A stretch of DNA of 64,000 nt. It comes from Eledone cirrhosa. Taxonomy: Eukaryota. This document shows positions 361-61,197 of this stretch, piece after piece. The notes under the pieces were generated by a model that saw only the letters and a list, made by a program, of their open reading frames with translations, did not search any database and was not told the DNA's origin. The translations under genes and the position numbers were made by a program. Within the stretch, counting starts at the first letter, position 1; every line of letters starts with the position of its first letter. Location of the stretch: assembly GCA_964016885.1 (NCBI GenBank), contig OZ024742.1, positions 258,974,001 to 259,038,000 on the forward strand. The letters are read 5' to 3'.

Positions 361-868
361 TTTGAGTTTATGTTGGTTGTATACCAACACCTCAGTATGC
401 AGGCTGGAGCACTCGACGAAGTGCGCAGGTTGGTTTGGTTACTCCGGAGTAGTGTAAAATAAAGTTAAATAAAAGTCAAATGATTAAAATTTAGCTTCGT
501 TTATTACTGCTATATATATTTCAGTGACAGCCATCTTTGGCTGTGACCTCTTCAGGCAGTTTGAATTAGTATGGTATAGACAAATACATATGTTGTTTAG
601 GTGTATGATATTGTCAATACTCTGATATGCCCAGTTCCTTTCTGGGTTGTTAATTCACTTCCAGTTCCCCAGTGAATTAACAACCCAGAAAGGAACTGGG
701 CATATCAGAGTATTGACAATATCATACACCTAAACAACATATGTATTTGTCTATACCATACTAATTCAAACTGCCTGAAGAGGTCACAGCCAAAGATGGC
801 TGTCACTGAAATATATATAGCAGTAATAAACGAAGCTAAATTTTAATCATTTGACTTCTATTTAACTT

Positions 869-875
<7 letters not shown>
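361..875. mobile_element. Fold-back PLE-type insertion: arms 455-659 / 671-875, tail 361-454
   Basis: Near-perfect 205-bp inverted repeat with an 11-nt loop, HHR and AATAAA in each arm, flanked by (TA)n/(GA)n. Confidence 0.85.
770..824 (+). ncRNA. Type I minimal hammerhead ribozyme (mirror copy 506-560 on -)
   Basis: ACTGC-CTGAAGA-GGTCACAGCC(AAAGAT)GGCTGTCACT-GAAA-TATATA-TA-GCAGT; intact core, paired stems I and II, palindromic stem III, AATAAA immediately after. Confidence 0.88.
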
Positions 876-9008: not shown

Positions 9009-9009
9009 G

Positions 9010-9193
9010 AAAATGAATGACCCCGACGGCAGAGCTGAAGCGGTTTCGACGGCTATGTCCAGAAATAGCCGTCGAAACGGCTTGAGCTCTGCCGTCGGGG
9101 TCATACATTTTCCTATTACCCACTCTACTCCACTAAGTATTGAGTACTCTGGTGCGTTATAGTCCATCTGGTTCCTTACCACAACTCCTTCGT
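9010..9193 (+). mobile_element. Short hairpin-plus-tail PLE-type insertion, family C
   Basis: About 48-bp fold-back containing the 3' half of an HHR (GAAA-CGGC..GCCG-TC-GGGGTC), 80-nt tail, in (TA)n; also at 15559 and 40837. Confidence 0.85.
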
Positions 9194-9255
9194 TATATAT
9201 ATACATACATATATACATATGTATATATATACACACACATATCAATCGACACATC

Positions 9256-12180: not shown

Positions 12181-14235
12181 AACGTTTGTATTTCTAAAGC
12201 AGGTATGGATATAGAATATAAATGCAAATGCAAAAGATATTGTGACAATTAGTCTTTTACCTTAAATGTATTTAAATATCCTTAATTTTCGAGATAATAT
12301 CTCTTCTTCGGAGGGAAGTAAAGTGGTTAAACCAGCGTTCTAAATAGTTTGCCAAGTCATGCTGACAGGAAATGGTATAGAGAATCTCTTCTATCTCTAA
12401 TGTCAAAGAGTGAATGTTAGGTGGATAAAGAGTAGTCTCCCTTTAAAAGGGGTTTTGTACATGTATGTTTAAGGAAAGAAACCTCGGCAATCTTAGAATT
12501 AAGGAAGCCCTGATTATAGACAAAACACAACCACCAATCAAAAATAGACCAGAACTCAACACCCAATTTATAACTTTATAGAGCACCTAGCCCCATACTT
12601 ACACCCATCACCCCTCACACACACGCGCACACGCCCACACACACGCACACACACACATACACACGCTTACACTTCCACTTATTCTCACTCTTGCACACAC
12701 AGAGACCAGTTCTAACACGATAGAGCATCTATCCCCCACATTTACGTATAAAGATATCTTCTCACACTCACACCCACCCACACACACTCACATACTTACA
12801 CCTTCACGTATTCTCCCACATACATGTACAAAATCCCTTTTAAAGGGAGACTACTCTTTATCCACCTAACCTTCACTCTTTGACATTAGAGATAGAAGAG
12901 ATTCTCTATACCATTTCCTGTCAGCATGACTTGGCAAGCTATTTAGAACGCTGGTTTAACCACTTTACTTCCCTCCGAAGAAGAGATATTATCTCGAAAA
13001 TTAATGATATTTAAATAAATTTAAGGTATAAGACTAATTGTCAACAACATATTTTGCATTTGCATTTATATTCTATATCCATACCTGCATTGTTTTGGCT
13101 TTACAAATACAAACGTGTATACCTCATTACACAATGCTTCAAGTGAACTATAACTTCCTCCTTTCCTTACGCCTGAGCCAGGCTCAGTTCACAACTGTAA
13201 AGAAACTCTTCCAGCTATCTGAAAAGCGCGCCAAAGCCGGCTGCCAAACGATGCCTGAATAACAACATCATCCCCAAAACTATCAAAAACTTGCACCTAC
13301 CAACATGCTTCAAATCACCAGGCCTCAAACGATTACTTAGCTACATACAAAAATTCTGCCTAAGAAAACTCATACAACACCTACACCGCACGCTACAACA
13401 ACACATACGGACTATTTCCAGCCTTGTACCACAACTCACTGAAACCCCAGAACCTCTGCCCAGAATTATCTCCGCCGCTATAGACAGGTCATACCACCAT
13501 CGTAGAGACTACGAGAAACTACGCCTAACGCAAAAATTTCTCAAACTCAGCGCGGCTAACCGTCTTAACAACATCCCAACTCTAAACACCAACAGAGGCG
13601 AACAAGACGGTACCAACACCGAACCTACCGGCGCCCCGACCAACAACACACCTGACGCAAAACACCTCGTCACAGACTTGACAGGATCCCTTCCCGAGAG
13701 GAATTAGACCTCCTCAGCCTGGGTGCCAAGTTCATATTGAAACAGAGACTGGACGTCAAATTATGGCTCGACATAGAAACACATTTCTGTCGGGCTGCCT
13801 ACCAACTAAAATGGATATCGACTCTCGGCAACGACACCACGGAATCTAACAAACCCAGATTCCCGATATACCGACTGGGTCGCCCACTCTGTCCACCGCC
13901 TACCAACCTCGAGCTTGAAGAAAAACTCTCGAGGCTAAAACATTCCGTATTTAACATCTTACGGAAGCAGAAGAAGATAGCCCCAAACCTCTCCAGGACA
14001 CAACAACTCGCCCTGAAGAACCTACGGAATAGGGAAATTATATACTTACCATCCGACAAAGGTAAAGAGTTTTGTGTCATCTCTCAAGCCACATACAACA
14101 ACCTAGCCTTTGAACACCTAAGCGACAATGAACTATATACAGCGATCCATGACATGACTGCAGCCCAGATCGAAAAACAGGCCAACTCCATCTGGTTCGA
14201 CATCTGTAGGAGAAGACAACTCCCAAATAAGCTAC
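12181..14235 (+). mobile_element. Penelope-like retroelement, partial tandem with inverted pseudo-LTR
   Basis: Inverted arms 12181-12467 / 12819-13116; GIY-YIG-type C-terminus FKERNLGNLRIKEALIIDKTQPPIKNRPEL* at 12468-12581; HHR-like motif 12972-13005; the ORF of the next unit starts at 13134. Confidence 0.88.
13134..14235 (+). pseudogene. PLE reverse transcriptase N-terminal region, frameshifted and truncated
   Basis: Motifs CLNNNIIPK, VTDLTGSL..ELDLLSLGAKF and NLSRTQQLALKNLRNREIIYLPSDKGKEFCVI..Y..HLSDNELY (DKG box of PLE RTs); frameshifts near 13250 and 13700. Confidence 0.88.
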
Positions 14236-15525: not shown

Positions 15526-15558
<33 letters not shown>

Positions 15559-15561
<3 letters not shown>

Positions 15562-15743
15562 AACGAGTAAGACCCCGACGGCTGAGCTCAAGCCGTTTCG
15601 ACGGCTAATTCAGAATTAGCCGTCGAAACGGCTTGATTTCAGCCGTCGGGGTCCTACTCGTTCCTATTACCCACTCTACTACCCTAAGTATTGAGTACTT
15701 TGGTGCGTTATTGTCCACCTGGTTCCTTACCACATTTCCTTCG

Positions 15744-15744
<1 letters not shown>
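15559..15744 (+). mobile_element. Hairpin-plus-tail insertion, family C
   Basis: Same structure as 9010-9193, in (TA)n. Confidence 0.85.
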
Positions 15745-15796
<52 letters not shown>

Positions 15797-19915: not shown

Positions 19916-21799
19916 CAACGATACGTTGTATACGTATGTATTATTGTACGTATACATACTTATATTTAAGTAACAGCCGTACTAAGAGTGAGAAATGAAA
20001 TTTCGTTTCATTTTTACCATTTATATATATTATATATTATATTTATATATGTATATATATTGACTTAACTAAAACGTCTTGTCTTCCTGTAAAGTGTCAA
20101 TGCTGCTATCAATCCAAATAACAGCTTACGCGTGCATGAAACATCACTCCATTTTCCGGCGTTTACCTCTGAACGGTCGTTGATGGTGCGGATATATTCG
20201 GAGTGTTCTCCTATGGAAATAACTCTTGAGAAATTCATTTGAGTTTGGTTGCGGCAGTTTTTTTTTTTTTTTATAAATTTTCATTCACTTTTTCTGAAAC
20301 GTCAATCATCATTAATATTGTTGTCATTTTCCCCGCAAATATGGGTTCACTATCTTCTTTGCAACACACTAAAACAATCACGTATAATTTTTCCAGATAT
20401 GTTCCTACTTGATCACCTTGCATTCCTAAATCATTTATGACAAAAGAAAATAATAATTGGTAACTTTTTAATCCCTTTCCGTCATAGTTATTTCAATCTT
20501 TTTACTGCACACAATATCCCTGAATTTATCATACAGATATATAAAACGATGATAACTTATAGTACCCAAAAGATTACCATCGTAACGAGAAAGAGAAATA
20601 TTAATTTGTTAATAATCTAAATGATTTGTTTCATAAGATAACCCTCTTTGTTCATATCCAACATTCCAATTAATTGCTATACCACACATTTAAAGATAAT
20701 GAAACTGGAAATAATTGTTTCTACAAAGATTGTACACATACAGCACATTTCAGTCATTCATGTTTCTCTGATTAATTAAACATAGGAACAAACACTACAT
20801 TTATTAAACGACAGTTGTTACTTTTCAAACATAAAATAATGATCGCTATTTTATATTTCAATTAGTTCTTTTTGTTTTTACTCAGAAATAATTTCGATTA
20901 CAGCATTTACAACTGTAGTCTCTTCTTTGGAAATATACATATTTCGTTGGCAGATGAGATTATTAGATATGATTTTAAAATCTACTGAAACAATTTTTCT
21001 GTAAAAATTATAAATTCATTCTTTCAATTTAAATTTCTCAATGATAATATAATTGATACTACAATAAAACTATAATTATTATAAACTTCAAAATGGATAC
21101 AAAATTATAGTGAATGAGGAATTGACATTCTAAAATATTGTTTTTTTAATTAAAATAAAATGAATTCCTTTTCCACATTCGCAATTCTAACATTGATTCA
21201 AAAACATAAAAACTACCCAAACCAATAAGGAAACAGATTTTATTCTTTCAACACTAATTTCACACTCAGCCAAATAAGATTTAAATAGAAAAAACATTTC
21301 ATATAAACAGGGTTTCTTGTTAGATATCTCAGATTCAGTAGAGTTTCAGACTTAATGCGGCAGTACTTTCCCCATTAAGTCCGATGAATCGAAATATCAT
21401 AATTATTACTACTCATTGTACCAACAAAAGCCAAAGTTTGGAGAACATGGATGAAAAAAATGGTTTGTCTATGTCAAAAAAATAATCCCAATATAATTAT
21501 GTCTGTACACCAGTGTGATGTGTCTGATAGTCTTTGTTTATACACATCAGTGAAGGTGAATTTATATTTCGGGTTGCAAAAGTTTTGAATATAAAGCAAA
21601 ATACATGGGAATTCCAAAATTAGTAAGAGCCCCAACACCCACACACACTCACACATAACCAAATATCTCCGAAGTTAACCATGTACCTATGTAAGAAGTG
21701 TATTCTATGAATCAAACATTTGAGTTGGTAGAGATACCGACACAACACTAAACTGCATGTCTTAGTGAATGTAGTTTCCTGAAAACTTGTTACTCAGTT

Positions 21800-29524: not shown

Positions 29525-29852
<328 letters not shown>

Positions 29853-29856
29853 TATA

Positions 29857-31973: not shown

Positions 31974-31977
<4 letters not shown>

Positions 31978-32450
31978 AAATAACAGGAGGCTGGGCTGGT
32001 GTAATTCCTTAAAAGGTTTATTATGCTATGATCATTTCAATGACCGGGTTCAGTATGAATCCAATGACATCATCAGGTATATGAGGGCGACCGACCGTGG
32101 TAGAAGCTGCTAAATTTTCGGTCGCCTTCATGTCTCTGATGGTCAGCCCCATGGATTTTGTCTATTTCATTCCTTTGTTTTATTTTGAATACCTGATGAT
32201 GTCACCGGATTCATACTGAACCCGGTCATTGAAATGATCATAATATAATAAAACTTTTGAAGGAATTACACCAGTCCAGCCTCCTGTTATTTTATAATAA
32301 TTAACTCCCTACTCGCACCACCAGCTACACAACGAAGAAGGGTGAGCTGCATTACGTTGAGTGCTCTCCATAATATTAAATCGAGGTTGACCATACGCTA
32401 TGACCAGTCCTATGCAGTGGTTATCCAACAAACCTAAATAATCATATATA
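31974..32450 (+). mobile_element. Fold-back PLE-type insertion: arms 31974-32080 / 32188-32296, plus tail
   Basis: Inverted repeat after (TA)n; HHR in each arm. Confidence 0.8.
32189..32246 (+). ncRNA. Minimal hammerhead ribozyme motif (mirror copy about 32023-32082 on -)
   Basis: CTGATGA-TGTCACCGG..CCGGTCATT-GAAA-TGATCA-TA; palindromic stem III; stem I partly mismatched. Confidence 0.75.
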
Positions 32451-36183: not shown

Positions 36184-36185
<2 letters not shown>

Positions 36186-37143
36186 TTTCTGAATTTGTTT
36201 AGCAAGATTCTTTATCTGAAATCGTGTGTTGAAGCGGATATTGTTATACTTTGGGAGGGTCATGTTGCCAATAAGAAACACACGCACCAGTTGCTTTCAC
36301 TTCAATTTATTATATATTTATAAATTTATAAATTTACAAATCTAGAAACTTATAAATTTCTGGCTGGTTGGTTGGTTCCACAACCAGATAGTTGTTTATA
36401 TATAGTCATAGTCCTTTCGTCACACACTCTGTGACCTCTGTAGGCTAGTTCGCCTCTAGGCTTGTATTGATGAACATTACACTCTGGTATTTATTGCTAT
36501 CATACCATGAGTTTATTCTATTGGCCTTGTTCCTAGTTCTTTCTATTCTATTCCAAAATTTGCTCCTATACAAGGGGCAGGTCCCATTTATGTCATTATT
36601 TACCATTTTTTCCCATTTGGTTCTGGCTCCTCTATACACTCTGATTCTATCTCTCTGATTATAGCCAGAGAACTGCATACGGTGGATGAAGTGTTGTATG
36701 TGTCTCTCTAGTTCTTCGGGGTTGCACATGCGGGACACATTTCTCATCACCCGTACCAAATCCGCAATCAGTATGTTGATTTTGGTATGGTCCGAAATGG
36801 CCGAGTTTCGGTGGATCAGATGTTTGGAAGTCATGGGTTTGGCACAATGGGAATTGAGGATTTGTTTTTGGTTGTTAATGGTATCTAACCAGAGCTCTGT
36901 GTCTAGTACAGGTAATCGATGGTTGGGGTGTCTACTTGGGTAGTCTATAGTAACTCTAATGCAGAGTGTGTGACAAAAGGACTATGACTATATATAAACA
37001 ACTATCTGGTTGTGGAACCAACCAACCAGAAATTTATAAGTTTGTAGATTTGTAAATTTATAAATTTATAAATATATAATAAATTTAAGTGAAAGCAACT
37101 GGTGCATGTGTTTCTTATTGGCAACATGACCCTCCCAAAGTAT

Positions 37144-37150
<7 letters not shown>
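36184..37150 (-). mobile_element. Penelope-like element, family K: inverted pseudo-LTR, RT fragment, 3' pseudo-LTR and tail
   Basis: Arms 36238-36440 / 36962-37150 each with an HHR 3' half; tail 36184-36237; (TA)n flanks. Confidence 0.9.
36445..36960 (-). pseudogene. PLE reverse transcriptase C-terminal core and thumb fragment
   Basis: DYPSRHPNHRLPVLDTELW..HCAKPMTSKHLIHRNSA..RMQFSGY..CPLYRSKFW..SWY..SVMFI. Confidence 0.9.
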
Positions 37151-37202
<52 letters not shown>

Positions 37203-37207
<5 letters not shown>

Positions 37208-37517
37208 GTAGAACACTGTAAGATAATATCCGTAGTGGAAGAGCACTCAGTCTATGGGACGAGTTAGGTAGAAGTAGTTACACAACAGTTAGTTCACCAT
37301 ACCGAGAACAATTGTTCACCTTAGAGGATCCTCGACTCGTACTGGACACGCCTCCTGTTCCGTATAACCATGTCTATTACAAGCTGCGGATCCAATAAGG
37401 TGAAACAATTGTTCTCGGTATGGTGAACTAACTGCTGTGTAATTACTTCTACCTAACTCGTCCCATGGACTGATTGCTCTACCACTACGGATATTACCTT
37501 CCAGTGTTCTATCACTA
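37203..37517. mobile_element. Fold-back insertion, family F
   Basis: About 135-bp inverted arms; HHR 3' half GAAA-CAATTG-TT at 37402-37413. Confidence 0.8.
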
Positions 37518-37521
37518 TATA

Positions 37522-39182
37522 TCTTTATATATATAAAAGCGAGGATGTGTGTGTGTCTGTGTACAATTTTGGATACCTAAGACTTTTACAATTACCAACT
37601 GAATTTGAGCAAATTTTCTGTGCACGTTTCACATGTCGCTAAGATGGTCACATCATAAACATTTTTCCAATCGACCCACGTTGAGCAACACAAAATCGAT
37701 ATCAAAATTATCCGTAGAAAAATTGATGTAAGGGAGATAACCAAACTTTATTGACAATCCTTATAAAGAGAGTGAGATATGGAGACCTTCGTTTTCAATT
37801 TTAACACAACAATCATCGTCGGACAAAATTTCAGAAATATAAACATCAGATTCATTTGAAGATAAATCACTAATATTATCGTTTGTTTCTTGTTTATTCT
37901 TTGTTGCACATTCAAAGTTAAAAAAACACTTGTTGTTTTAACTTGTTTCACTATATTAAGTGTTAATTTTCGCGTTAAGGGCCTAATCTCGCAGCAGTCT
38001 CGAATTGAAGAGATTTTGATGATGGTTTGTTTATTTTTAGAACAATCGTTATGGGACTTTCCATTCAAACCATTGGGACCTACAGCTTTTACATTTTTAA
38101 AGTAATTTCGTCCAGATTTGATGCAGGCATTATCTATGCTTCCAGCTGTATTCGTACACATCAAACCTTTTTGACAATAAAGGAACATTCTTCCTGGATG
38201 TCCACGGATATATAAATCTATTGATACTGTATGTGATCCACAGGATGCGGTCAACTATCCAGTTGAATTTCTAAATTCTTTAAATCCTCCTGGTTTGCCT
38301 CCTAATACCTTCGTTCTGAAAGAGGGAACGCCAGTTATTTTGCTAAGAAATATCACTCCTCCAAAACAATGTTACACGCCTTAGTATTGACGCTACCATT
38401 CTATCCGGATGTGGAAAAGGCGAGGATGTGATAATAACAAAAATTAGCCTGACTACATCAGGCGTGGATACTCTCTTCTCCTCTCGCCTAACCCAATTTC
38501 CCCTTCGTGTTGCCTTTGCGATGTCCATAAACAAGTCGCAAGGTCAAACTCTGTCCGTCACTGGAATTCACTTGGATGAACCTTGCTTTTCGCACGGACA
38601 ATTCTACGTTGCCTGCTCACGAGTTGGCAGTCGAGATTATCTCTTTGCGTTTGTTCCAAAAAGAAAAACAAAGAATATCGTCTATGCTGAAGTACTTTAG
38701 TGTTAACAGAAAAACTTATAACAGCTCTGCCTTGCTTCACTTTACTCATTACAAAACATACCAATGAATATGTTATGTAGGATATTTGGTATTATAAGTT
38801 CAAAATTTAACCATACACAGCAAAGGATGCTCTCAAAGAATAAATTTTCTCTAATTCTACACTCATTGTTTTTTTGCTTGTATACAACTCTGCTTTCATT
38901 ACAACTTTTTGTACTTTAGCAAAACTGCCTGTTTTTTTTTACAGATTTGCAACGTGTATTGTCTTTAATCATTTGTATAACTACATCCTGTTCAGTGTTT
39001 TCCTTTATTATCAACATAGTTTTATGTGTACAAAGAGTGCACTAAATATTCGTTTGCATTAATTATTGAAGACTTCTGCTTATTCTGACAGGTTGGGGAC
39101 AAATAATGTTCTTCTTTTACTTCCAAGGTGTATATTCTTAGCATAATTTCAAACCCCGAACAACGCCGGGTAAATCTGCTAG
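37522..39182 (+). mobile_element. Internally deleted Helitron
   Basis: 5' TC start, 3' hairpin CCCG..CGGG and CTAG end, inserted between A and T, Pif1 helicase remnant. Confidence 0.9.
38200..38700 (+). pseudogene. Helitron Pif1-family helicase C-terminal fragment
   Basis: YPVEFLNSLNPPGLPP..PVILLRNI and QFPLRVAFAMSINKSQGQTL..PCFSHGQFYVACSRV..TKNIVYAEVL. Confidence 0.92.
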
Positions 39183-39317
39183 TATATATATATATATGTT
39201 CTACCGGCAAGTTCAGCCAACCTTACCTCCCACTAAATGCCATGATAGATTCATCTGTCTTTACAACACATTTTTGACCAATTCTCTTGACAATTACTAT
39301 CTTGCCAAATAAGGAAA

Positions 39318-39415
39318 TAGCCCCTGAGAAGTTCGGCTATTTATTTACCAGGCTAAACATTCTTATTTAGTCCAGAAATAGCCGTCGAAACGGCTTGAGC
39401 TCTGCCGTCGGAGTA
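39318..39415 (+). ncRNA. Full-length hammerhead motif of family C, core degenerate
   Basis: CCC-CTGAGAA-GTTCGGCTATTT..AAATAGCCGTC-GAAA-CGGC(TTGAGCTCT)GCCG-TC-GGAG; G8 replaced by A. Confidence 0.72.
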
Positions 39416-39426
39416 ATACTGCTTCC

Positions 39427-39525
<99 letters not shown>

Positions 39526-40533: not shown

Positions 40534-40562
40534 ACACACACATATATATATATATACAGTAT

Positions 40563-40789
40563 ATGCCTGTATACATATATGTATGTACGTATACATACTT
40601 ATATTTAAGTAACAGCCGTACTAAGAGTGAGAAATGAAATGGTATATATTTTATCTGGTGATTCTATAGACATGTATTATGATATATAGCTCTGATTATT
40701 TAATTTATTAACTTTTCATTGAGCCACAAAGTGACCCGTTGCAAAACACGTATATGTATGTATGTATATAGATATATAGATATATGTAA

Positions 40790-40839
<50 letters not shown>

Positions 40840-41027
40840 AACCAGTAAGACCCCGACAGCTGAGCTCAAGCCGTTTCGACGGCTAATTCTGGACCAGAAT
40901 TAGCCGTCGAAACGGCTTGAGCTCAGCTGTCGGGGTCTTACTGGTTCCTATTACCCACTCTACTACCTCAAGTATTGAGTACTTTGGTGCGTTATGGTCC
41001 ACCTGGTTCCTTACCACATTTCCTTCG

Positions 41028-41072
<45 letters not shown>

Positions 41073-41301
41073 TTTACATATATCTATATATCTATATACA
41101 TACATACATATACGTGTTTTGCAACGGGTCACTTTGTGGCTCAATGAAAAGTTAATAAATTAAATAATCAGAGCTATATATCATAAAACATGTCTATAGA
41201 ATCACCAGATAAAATATATACCATTTCATTTCTCACTCTTAGTGCGGCTGTTACTTAAATATAAGTATGTATACGTACATACATATATGTATACAGGCGT
41301 A
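40563..41301. repeat. Outer inverted repeat 40563-40794 / 41068-41301 around a nested hairpin element
   Basis: About 230-bp near-identical inverted arms; part matches 33975-34050, part matches 19920-20000 and 50825-50900. Confidence 0.85.
40837..41028 (+). mobile_element. Hairpin-plus-tail insertion, family C
   Basis: Essentially perfect fold-back of about 56 bp plus 80-nt tail, in (TA)n. Confidence 0.88.
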
Positions 41302-44497: not shown

Positions 44498-44597
44498 AAC
44501 GAAGGAATTGTAGTAAGGAACCAGATGGACCATAACGCACCCGAGTACTCAATACGAAACGGGTTGAGCACTGCTGTCGGCGTCATACCTTTTCCTA
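44498..44597. mobile_element. Family C copy with collapsed centre
   Basis: Reverse tail 44498-44553 joined to a forward HHR 3' half 44554-44597. Confidence 0.75.
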
Positions 44598-44747
44598 TAT
44601 ATATGTATATATATAGAGATAATAATAAATTTGAAGACTAAAATCCAAAGAGGGCTCGATAAGGATAAATATATATCAAATATATAAAAACAGTAGAGCA
44701 AATATTTATTAAAATAACAGATTAAAGTTTAATCAAAGAATCGCGAT

Positions 44748-44840
<93 letters not shown>

Positions 44841-44846
<6 letters not shown>

Positions 44847-45175
44847 AAAAAGCGATGAAATCGAAAATGCAACTGGAGTCTTATTTTTTTTTAAAATATA
44901 TATATTTATTTGGTTCCTTTACCGGTTTCGCAGTTCTTCTGCTTTTCAAAATGTGAGTTGAGATGGAGGGTCTGTGAGAAATACCACAGACCCTCCATCT
45001 CAACTCACCTTTTGAAAATCAGAAGAACTGCGAACCGGTAAAGGAACCAAATAAATTTATATATTTAAAAAAAAATAAGACTCCAGTTGCATTTTCGATT
45101 TCATCTCTTTTTCTTTATACTTTCACTCGTGTAGGACACCTCGGTTATTTTTCATTTTGTAAAAAAAACCTCACT

Positions 45176-60868: not shown

Positions 60869-60955
60869 TGTGGTGCACACAAGACATATTTCTTTTGCTA
60901 TACGGTAGCAAACTTAATATTTGTAGCAACTGAGAGTACGATATCGACATAATAC

Positions 60956-60992
<37 letters not shown>

Positions 60993-61040
60993 AGCACGCA
61001 AACACATACACACACATATATATGTGTGTGTGTTTCCGTG

Positions 61041-61095
<55 letters not shown>

Positions 61096-61197
61096 GTATG
61101 TATTATGTCTATATCGTACTCTCAGTTGCTACAAATGCATCCAGAATATTAAGTTTGCTACCGTATAGCAAATGAAATATGTCTTGTGCGCACCACA
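60869..61197. repeat. Inverted repeat 60869-60958 / 61097-61197 separated by microsatellite
   Basis: About 90-bp arms with a 12-nt indel; right arm has a hairpin followed by GAAA-TATG-TC. Confidence 0.8.

What the first reader, a model, noticed from the sequence alone, without database searches (positions are those of the whole stretch)
9010..9193. Recurrent snap-back inside ribozyme stem II generates a 185-bp hairpin-plus-tail element
Three copies (9010, 15559, 40837) all invert within a few nt of the same point, in the stem II region of the HHR seen full length at 39318-39415. The two arms of each copy share copy-specific substitutions (AATG/CATT in 9010, AACGAG/CTCGTT in 15559, AACCAG/CTGGTT and ACAGC/GCTGT in 40837). 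Inference: each hairpin formed de novo when cDNA folded back at the ribozyme stem, or the arms were homogenised afterwards. The ribozyme structure would then set the truncation point. Family F (37203) and the right arm of 36184-37150 also break in or near stem II.
Basis: partly seen in the sequence, partly recalled or inferred. Interest (0 to 1): 0.75.

Follow-up and report, generated by a model that had tools for sequence, protein, structure and literature searches.

The report
Twin-primed Penelope stubs ending at cap
These small DNA hairpins are the shortest insertions of an abundant Penelope-like jumping gene; each is joined at its own point, likely from two separately primed DNA copies that run off the likely capped start of the element's RNA, which lies inside a hammerhead-ribozyme motif, rather than from one copy folding back on the ribozyme.

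Summary
The three hairpins are real. They are short ends of a Penelope-like retroelement (PLE) with Hydra-clade motifs (full-length parent L091; 20,690 exact copies of one tail word). Hairpins form anew at each insertion: 63 distinct junctions in 66, with no left-versus-left clustering. The 'copy-specific' substitutions are subfamily markers.

Snap-back at stem II is not supported. No arm ends on the 5' strand of stem II (0 of 91; 0 of 73). The inverted arm reaches further inward as often as the main arm does (27:26), and some arms share no sequence or come from two families.

Both arms stop at one boundary in loop II, often behind an untemplated G (5,202 G versus 863 A; control about 1:1), as expected of a capped RNA start. 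The best model is two cDNAs primed at two internal RNA sites on opposite strands of (TA)n, each running off the RNA 5' end, then joined. No RNA data were available. Family F breaks upstream of its ribozyme.

The scan reported the same reading earlier on other DNA of this genome. The architecture is published; I found no paper with the mechanism.

The parts
9009..9056 (-). Inverted tail-less arm (family positions +10 to about +57/+61), outer end at priming site E1
9057..9116 (+). Main arm from +2: 3' half of the hammerhead motif (GAAA 9074-9077, predicted cut after 9096), up to E1
9117..9195 (+). About 80-nt PLE tail between end sites E1 and E2, with a small bulged hairpin at its start
15558..15746 (+). 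Second hairpin-plus-tail copy, another subfamily; junction +7/+5
40836..41030 (+). Third copy, third subfamily; inverted arm reaches further inward (+2) than the main arm (+4)
39196..39429 (+). Tail-less read-through pLTR fragment with the whole hammerhead motif (core from 39324 with C3.A8 mismatch; inferred RNA start 39369; predicted cut after 39409; ends at E1)
44498..44598 (.). Fourth insertion: inverted tail arm (+82 to +138) joined to a tail-less arm (+18 to +61); the arms share no sequence
37203..37520 (+). Family F hairpin-plus-tail, a different PLE; both arms hold the whole small hammerhead
29694..29855 (.). Family F insertion with nearly non-overlapping arms; the inverted arm ends at G-ATTAC
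36184..37150 (.). Family H inverted pair (Neptune-like linker and EN motifs in other copies); comparison family without a hard boundary

Best explanation
The element is the shortest insertion of a Penelope-like retroelement with Hydra-clade motifs: a tailed arm and an inverted tail-less arm, joined differently in each copy, likely made as two separately primed cDNAs that each run off the likely capped 5' end of the element's RNA. Steps: (1) inferred: transcription starts at an initiator-like T/C-A(+1)-G-T inside loop II of the pLTR hammerhead. (2) Shown in vitro for another PLE, inferred here: the enzyme cuts both strands of the self-complementary (TA)n target and primes from each strand at two internal RNA sites, here E1 (+61) and E2 (about +140). 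(3) Inferred from the untemplated G: each cDNA reaches +1 after 61 or 140 nt and often copies the cap. (4) Shown as sequence, mechanism inferred: the two cDNA ends are trimmed by a few to about 50 nt and joined (33 with microhomology, 24 with inserted bases, 9 blunt, of 66). (5) Inferred: long copies arise when a cDNA jumps from +1 to another template position or is primed on the 3' pLTR. The fold of stem II plays no evident part; it only surrounds the start site.
For: Parent L091 has an inverted tailed copy, two pLTRs and an RT + GIY-YIG ORF in pieces. There are two fixed outer ends in long and short copies alike. Inner ends: 51 of 91 main arms and 41 of 66 inverted arms lie in -6..+7, only 13 of 91 go further upstream, and none lies on the 5' strand of stem II; replicated. 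Base at -1 genome-wide: T 15,786 (templated), G 5,202, A 863 (C not counted). Read-through copies have T 39, C 3, G 0. None of 30 G loci reads through, and at most 9 of 30 could take the G from the partner arm (hand count). Control at +5: 1,554 purine cases, 50 G to 50 A in the 100 rows listed (hand count). Symmetry 27:26 and 25:19, with no age trend (p=0.60, 40 hairpins scored). Arms without shared sequence: 44498, L103, L354. L331 joins this family's tail arm to a family-F arm. Family F shows the same G (142 versus 157 A+T) at a site 8 nt upstream of its core. Jumps from +1 to downstream positions: L181 and 'goes back' joints. PMC11167929: both strands cut and extended, two RT start sites flanking the tail. 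PMC9341517: untemplated 5' G attributed to cap copying in L1.
Against: No RNA data, so the start site and cap are inferred from DNA scars only. An RT could add C at an uncapped 5' end as well. Many arms stop at -1 to -4 in the T run, where templated T and added A cannot be told apart. Family F's boundary is soft (many arms reach -14 to -41) and its G excess is weaker. Family H has no hard boundary but a weak cluster near its hammerhead (7 of 40 arms). Arms belong to the same subfamily in 60 of 64 scored hairpins (19% expected at random), and 9 singleton variants are shared by both arms. That needs the same RNA or the same source gene, and it is what snap-back predicts too. Deletion at the centre of a palindrome after insertion could mimic the symmetry. 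Automated breakpoint calls are off by a few nt in some copies.
Confidence: 0.75

Rival explanations
1. One reading: cDNA folds back at ribozyme stem II and copies itself, so the RNA structure sets the breakpoint.
For: Breakpoints lie between the two strands of stem II. Arms are of one subfamily in 60 of 64. Weak cluster near the hammerhead in family H.
Against: No end on the 5' strand of stem II (0 of 91, 0 of 73) and no full-loop product in any locus. Only 8 of 66 geometries are compatible. It does not explain the fixed stop at +61, the untemplated G, the non-overlapping arms, L331 or family F.
Confidence: 0.03
2. One cDNA runs off the RNA 5' end, self-primes through added bases and copies itself back; later deletions at the palindrome centre scramble the junction. 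This is the sense-strand version of the self-priming proposed in PMC3846280.
For: Explains the same-subfamily arms and the 9 singleton variants in both arms, and the 13 of 66 equal-length junctions.
Against: No reason to stop at +61. The inverted-longer class is as common among near-identical arms (12:11) as among older ones (7:10). Long inverted pairs show the same E1/E2 pairing. L331 is a two-family chimera. A G before the sense +1 argues against the antisense template of PMC3846280.
Confidence: 0.08
3. Twin priming is right, but the boundary is an uncapped RNA end (nuclease or slicer cut) or a hard RT stop at the upper helix of loop II, with terminal C addition by the RT.
For: +1 falls in the 3' strand of a 7-bp upper helix in one subfamily. 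No RNA data.
Against: The upper helix is weaker in other subfamilies that show the same boundary. The initiator-like context holds in two families with different positions relative to the ribozyme (consensus recalled). The G excess is specific to -1.
Confidence: 0.12
4. One master hairpin element per subfamily was copied as a unit, or the arms were homogenised after insertion.
For: Some junctions recur (for example 9010 and L016).
Against: 63 distinct junctions in 66; no column separates left from right arms; 127 one-arm variants against 19 shared.
Confidence: 0.02

Closest known systems
EN+ PLE complex insertions: partial-tandem pLTRs, adjacent inverted 5'-truncated copy, one-sided tail (PMC8557442 Fig. 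2 legend; PMC3846280)
   Same: Same architecture; L091 is the standard form and the hairpin is its shortest case.
   Different: The tail is about 80 nt rather than 30-40. Most tailed copies are stubs ending at one fixed inner site. PMC3846280 explains the palindromes by self-priming on an antisense template, which these data argue against.
Poseidon_Ac (PAc) in vitro (PMC11167929)
   Same: Both strands cut and extended; two internal RT start sites bounding the tail; hammerhead cleavage dispensable.
   Different: The main text I read gives no model for inverted junctions and no run-off at the RNA 5' end; different clade; there the ORF starts in stem II.
Hydra clade PLEs (PMC8557442 section 11)
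   Same: RWR (for RWK), DKT, CxCX5C linker, CxxC and CxH around E/N, (TA)n target.
   Different: The hammerhead core is U3-A8 or C3.A8 rather than canonical; the unit is about 3.5 kb in L091; no phylogeny run.
L1 twin priming (recalled, not read) and cap-derived 5' G (PMC9341517)
   Same: Two target strands prime two cDNAs that are joined by microhomology; untemplated G at the RNA start.
   Different: Here both primings use fixed sites and copy the same short 5' segment, which gives a palindrome instead of an internal inversion.
D. virilis Penelope promoter and hammerhead (PMC2377424; PMC4209133)
   Same: TATA-less internal promoter with its start site in the pLTR; U3-A8 cores and opposite-strand hammerhead pairs are known in schistosome PLEs.
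   Different: There the start lies about 120 nt upstream of the hammerhead (46 nt plus a 75-nt intron ending at helix I); here it is inferred to split the ribozyme.
Non-LTR retrozymes (bioRxiv 10.64898/2026.07.22.740005)
   Same: PLE-derived, non-coding, hammerhead-related.
   Different: Dispersed, inverted, half a ribozyme, no tandem array.

Membership tests
EN+ Penelope-like element | RT followed by a C-terminal GIY-YIG endonuclease | tested here: met
   Motifs read by eye in separate frames of L091; Pfam gave no hit on the three fragments
EN+ Penelope-like element | pLTRs, adjacent inverted 5'-truncated copy, one-sided tail | tested here: met
Hydra clade | RWK motif and DKT in the RT N-terminal region | tested here: met
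   RWR and DKT in L091; one conservative change
Hydra clade | CxCX5C linker; CxxC and CxH flanking the EN E and N | tested here: met
Hydra clade | No CCHH motif in the EN | tested here: inconclusive
   No cysteine pair seen in the GIY-YIG core, but this copy is frameshifted there
Hydra clade | Insertion into (TA)n | tested here: met
Hydra clade | Generally under 3 kb | tested here: inconclusive
   About 3.5 kb E2 to E1 in L091, which includes simple repeats and an apparent insertion
Hydra clade | RT phylogeny groups with Hydra | not tested
   No reference proteins fetched
Type I hammerhead ribozyme | Stems I-III formable around the core | tested here: met
   the window copy's own MFE is a different fold
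Type I hammerhead ribozyme | Core with a 3-8 Watson-Crick pair | tested here: inconclusive
   U3-A8 in some subfamilies, C3.A8 mismatch in the window copy; about half each among 9 position-ordered read-through copies; one search counts are biased
Type I hammerhead ribozyme | Self-cleavage | not testable with these tools
   Excess of ends at the cut site in set 1 did not replicate
Non-LTR retrozyme | Tandem units each with a complete hammerhead | tested here: not met
   Dispersed half-ribozyme hairpins
Snap-back (fold-back) product | Template arm longer than copied arm, with primer pairing at the turn | tested here: not met
   8 of 66 compatible

The most novel reading that the evidence does not exclude
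PLEs make a retrovirus-like strong-stop cDNA. Priming at the two tail sites near the capped 5' end gives 61- and 140-nt cDNAs that must transfer to the repeat at the RNA 3' end to copy the body and rebuild the pLTR. The start site splits the hammerhead, so only the 3' copy could cleave and bound that repeat. The thousands of hairpins are double transfer failures and record the mechanism base by base.
Probability: 0.35. Interest if true: 0.75.

Novelty: new variant of a known kind. Interest (0 to 1): 0.45.

Why it matters
How PLEs form their tandem and inverted structures is named as an open question (PMC8557442), and the one published explanation I read is antisense self-priming (PMC3846280). 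This family gives large genomic counts (roughly 14,000 or more hairpins if 66 of 91 holds for the 20,690 exact tail matches; my extrapolation). They favour two-ended priming on sense RNA and predict a start site to the base. Both can be tested with CAGE and the existing in vitro PLE system. The element itself is an ordinary transposon stub.

Tried and rejected
Rfam: no hammerhead among the rows shown, only miRNA models on TA repeats. The repeat finder was swamped by (TA)n. Strict hammerhead scans found nothing or one chance row. Pfam found nothing on the ORF pieces. RNA search: no RNA holder listed, which is no evidence either way; contigs of one sample were laid only for joints. First breakpoint scripts had references contaminated with TA or hairpin sequence (for family H) and were redone (77). 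loci are biased toward long main arms, and searches are biased by design, so they were left out of the set-1 breakpoint counts. Set 2 left out their central matches but still holds a few flank copies from them. A second peak at the ribozyme cut site looked real in set 1 (7 observed, 2 expected, p=0.004, after dropping one doubtful call, L146) but set 2 gave 1 of 73 and 0 of 50; unconfirmed. No tree was built; pairwise arm distances over 49 nt were used instead (67 of 71 hairpins). A likely intron in the 5' leader was not tested. Literature searches for twin priming, strong-stop or cap copying in PLEs listed no such paper; subscription papers are not searched and no supplements were read, so the family or the model may be in print.

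Full report
Observation. The three copies exist as described, each between (TA)n runs. They belong to one family, which also has a tail-less read-through copy at 39196-39429 and an unnoticed insertion at 44498-44598. The window lies in a 3.0-Gb genome in which one 36-nt tail word occurs 20,690 times. I number the family from +1, the A of AGTCC in loop II. Stem II strands are then -35..-27 and +8..+16, the predicted cut follows +41, and copies end at E1 (+61) or E2 (about +140), both running into TA.

Identity. L091 holds an inverted tailed copy, a 5' pLTR, a frameshifted RT + GIY-YIG ORF and a tail-less 3' pLTR. Its motifs (RWR, DKT, CxCX5C, CxxC/CxH) match the Hydra definition in PMC8557442 section 11. 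Inverted truncated copies and one-sided tails are known PLE features, so the hairpin is the shortest form of a known insertion.

Breakpoints. Set 1 is 91 copies taken in order along contig C1, from the first 91 of the 100 places listed, anchored on the tail only. Of these, 66 have an adjacent inverted arm. Main arms start upstream of stem II in 10, on its 5' strand in 0, in the 5' part of loop II in 3, at -6..+7 in 51 and further downstream in 27. Inverted arms give 1, 0, 2, 41 and 21, with one more inside the tail. Set 2 (73 copies, not fully independent) gave 33 in -6..+7 and 0 on the 5' strand. The pattern is a wall near +1 with a trimmed tail-off downstream. Calls are automated and can be off by several nt.

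De novo formation. 63 of 66 junctions are distinct. A copy's arms are closer to each other than to other left or right arms, and no column separates left from right. The 'copy-specific' motifs are subfamily markers. Arms agree in subfamily in 60 of 64 scored hairpins (7 of 71 ambiguous; 19% expected at random). 127 variants lie in one arm and 19 in both, 9 of these singletons. Both arms therefore usually copy the same RNA or the same source gene, and later homogenisation is minor.

Snap-back test. Fold-back of the tailed cDNA needs the main arm to be the longer one, a loop and primer pairing. Only 8 of 66 fit. The inverted arm reaches further in 27, the main arm in 26, and 13 are equal, with no difference in arm divergence (p=0.60, n=40). 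Set 2 gave 25:19:6. A true stem II product, keeping all of loop II as spacer, occurs in no fetched locus. The inverted arm ends at E1 in 48 of 66. 44498-44598, L103 and L354 have arms with no shared sequence. L331 joins this family's tail arm to a family-F arm between TA runs. None of the three window junctions fits simple snap-back. PAc cuts and extends both strands and starts at two sites bounding the tail (PMC11167929), which supplies the chemistry for two-ended priming.

What sets the wall. Read-through copies have T or C at -1 (39 and 3, G 0 of 42). Genome-wide, -1 is T in 15,786, G in 5,202 and A in 863. None of 30 G loci reads through, and at most 9 could borrow the G from the partner arm (hand count). 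At the control position +5, G and A are 50:50 among 100 listed rows of 1,554 (hand count). An untemplated 5' G is attributed to cap copying in L1 (PMC9341517), and the context resembles an initiator (consensus recalled). I infer a capped start at +1. This is not shown, because no RNA run was listed. Tandem units and joints that restart at +1 (L181) show template jumps from this end.

Other families. Family F (2,298 exact tail matches) has 18 of 71 main-arm and 20 of 36 inverted-arm ends just upstream of its core, and 4 and 2 in its stem II (hand tallies). A G precedes ATTAC at -8 in 142 cases against 157 for A plus T; none of 20 loci viewed reads through. Its boundary is softer. Family H (22,760 matches) mostly reads through its canonical hammerhead (27 of 40 arms upstream of the core). 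Three arms start in stem II and 7 in -7..+16, a weak cluster that I cannot explain and that leaves room for some pausing at the structure.

Ribozyme. The fold is formable, but position 8 is A throughout. It pairs with U3 in some subfamilies, a variant known from schistosome PLEs (PMC4209133), and is mismatched with C3 in others, including 39324. Activity is untested, and an excess of ends at the cut site did not replicate. PAc inserts without cleavage.

Literature seen. PMC8557442: passages and sections 11 and 20. PMC11167929: parts 1-2 of 4 (whole results text). PMC4209133: passages and part 1 of 4. PMC3846280, PMC2377424, PMC9341517: passages. bioRxiv 10.64898/2026.07.22.740005: part 1 of 5. 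L1 twin priming is recalled. No supplements were read; the PMC8557442 files may hold this family's consensus. Searches listed no paper on twin priming, strong-stop DNA or cap copying in PLEs. Earlier notes of this scan reached the twin-priming and RNA-start reading on other pieces of this genome. I had reached it before looking, and they are not independent support.

Verdict. The architecture is known; the mechanistic reading is well supported by DNA scars, unverified by RNA, and testable. New variant of a known kind; interest 0.45.

Noticed in passing
window 40562-40793 and 41070-41301: The 40837 copy sits in the TA centre of a larger 232-nt, 98.7% inverted repeat of unrelated sequence that also occurs near 19950; probably a separate fold-back element that was the target.
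   Followed up: no
window 457-873, 1279-2134, 12182-13116, 31975-32295, 44844-45115, 60869-61197: Further inverted-repeat structures; the 12182-13116 spacer looks like a GIY-YIG 3' end by eye, so probably more PLE inverted pairs.
   Followed up: no
window 9120-9147 and about 37455-37480: A small bulged hairpin starts a few nt after E1 in this family; family F has a similar motif by eye, though its window copy folded only partly. Matches a lead in earlier notes.
   Followed up: partly
L331:1430-1580: Single insertion made of arms from two different PLE families.
   Followed up: yes
L105, L138: Junctions with 14-18-nt A/T homopolymer runs at the +1 boundary, which suggests slippage or tailing when the RT runs off.
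   Followed up: no
L181: Head-to-tail 257-nt units that start at the +1 boundary and run about 115 nt into the body, behind a hairpin.
   Followed up: partly
L091:4300-4390: Polypyrimidine tract and AG just past E2, a likely splice acceptor as in Penelope's leader intron; read by eye.
   Followed up: no
L234; L254: Family F endonuclease fragment looks Hydra-like; family H has a CX4CxxC linker and two cysteines in the GIY-YIG core, Neptune-like.
   Followed up: partly
window 38000-38700: Decayed helicase-like coding remnant, recognised from memory as Helitron/PIF1-type; not tested.
   Followed up: no
L067-L070: Four identical copies about 44 kb apart on contig C2, a segmental tandem repeat.
   Followed up: no
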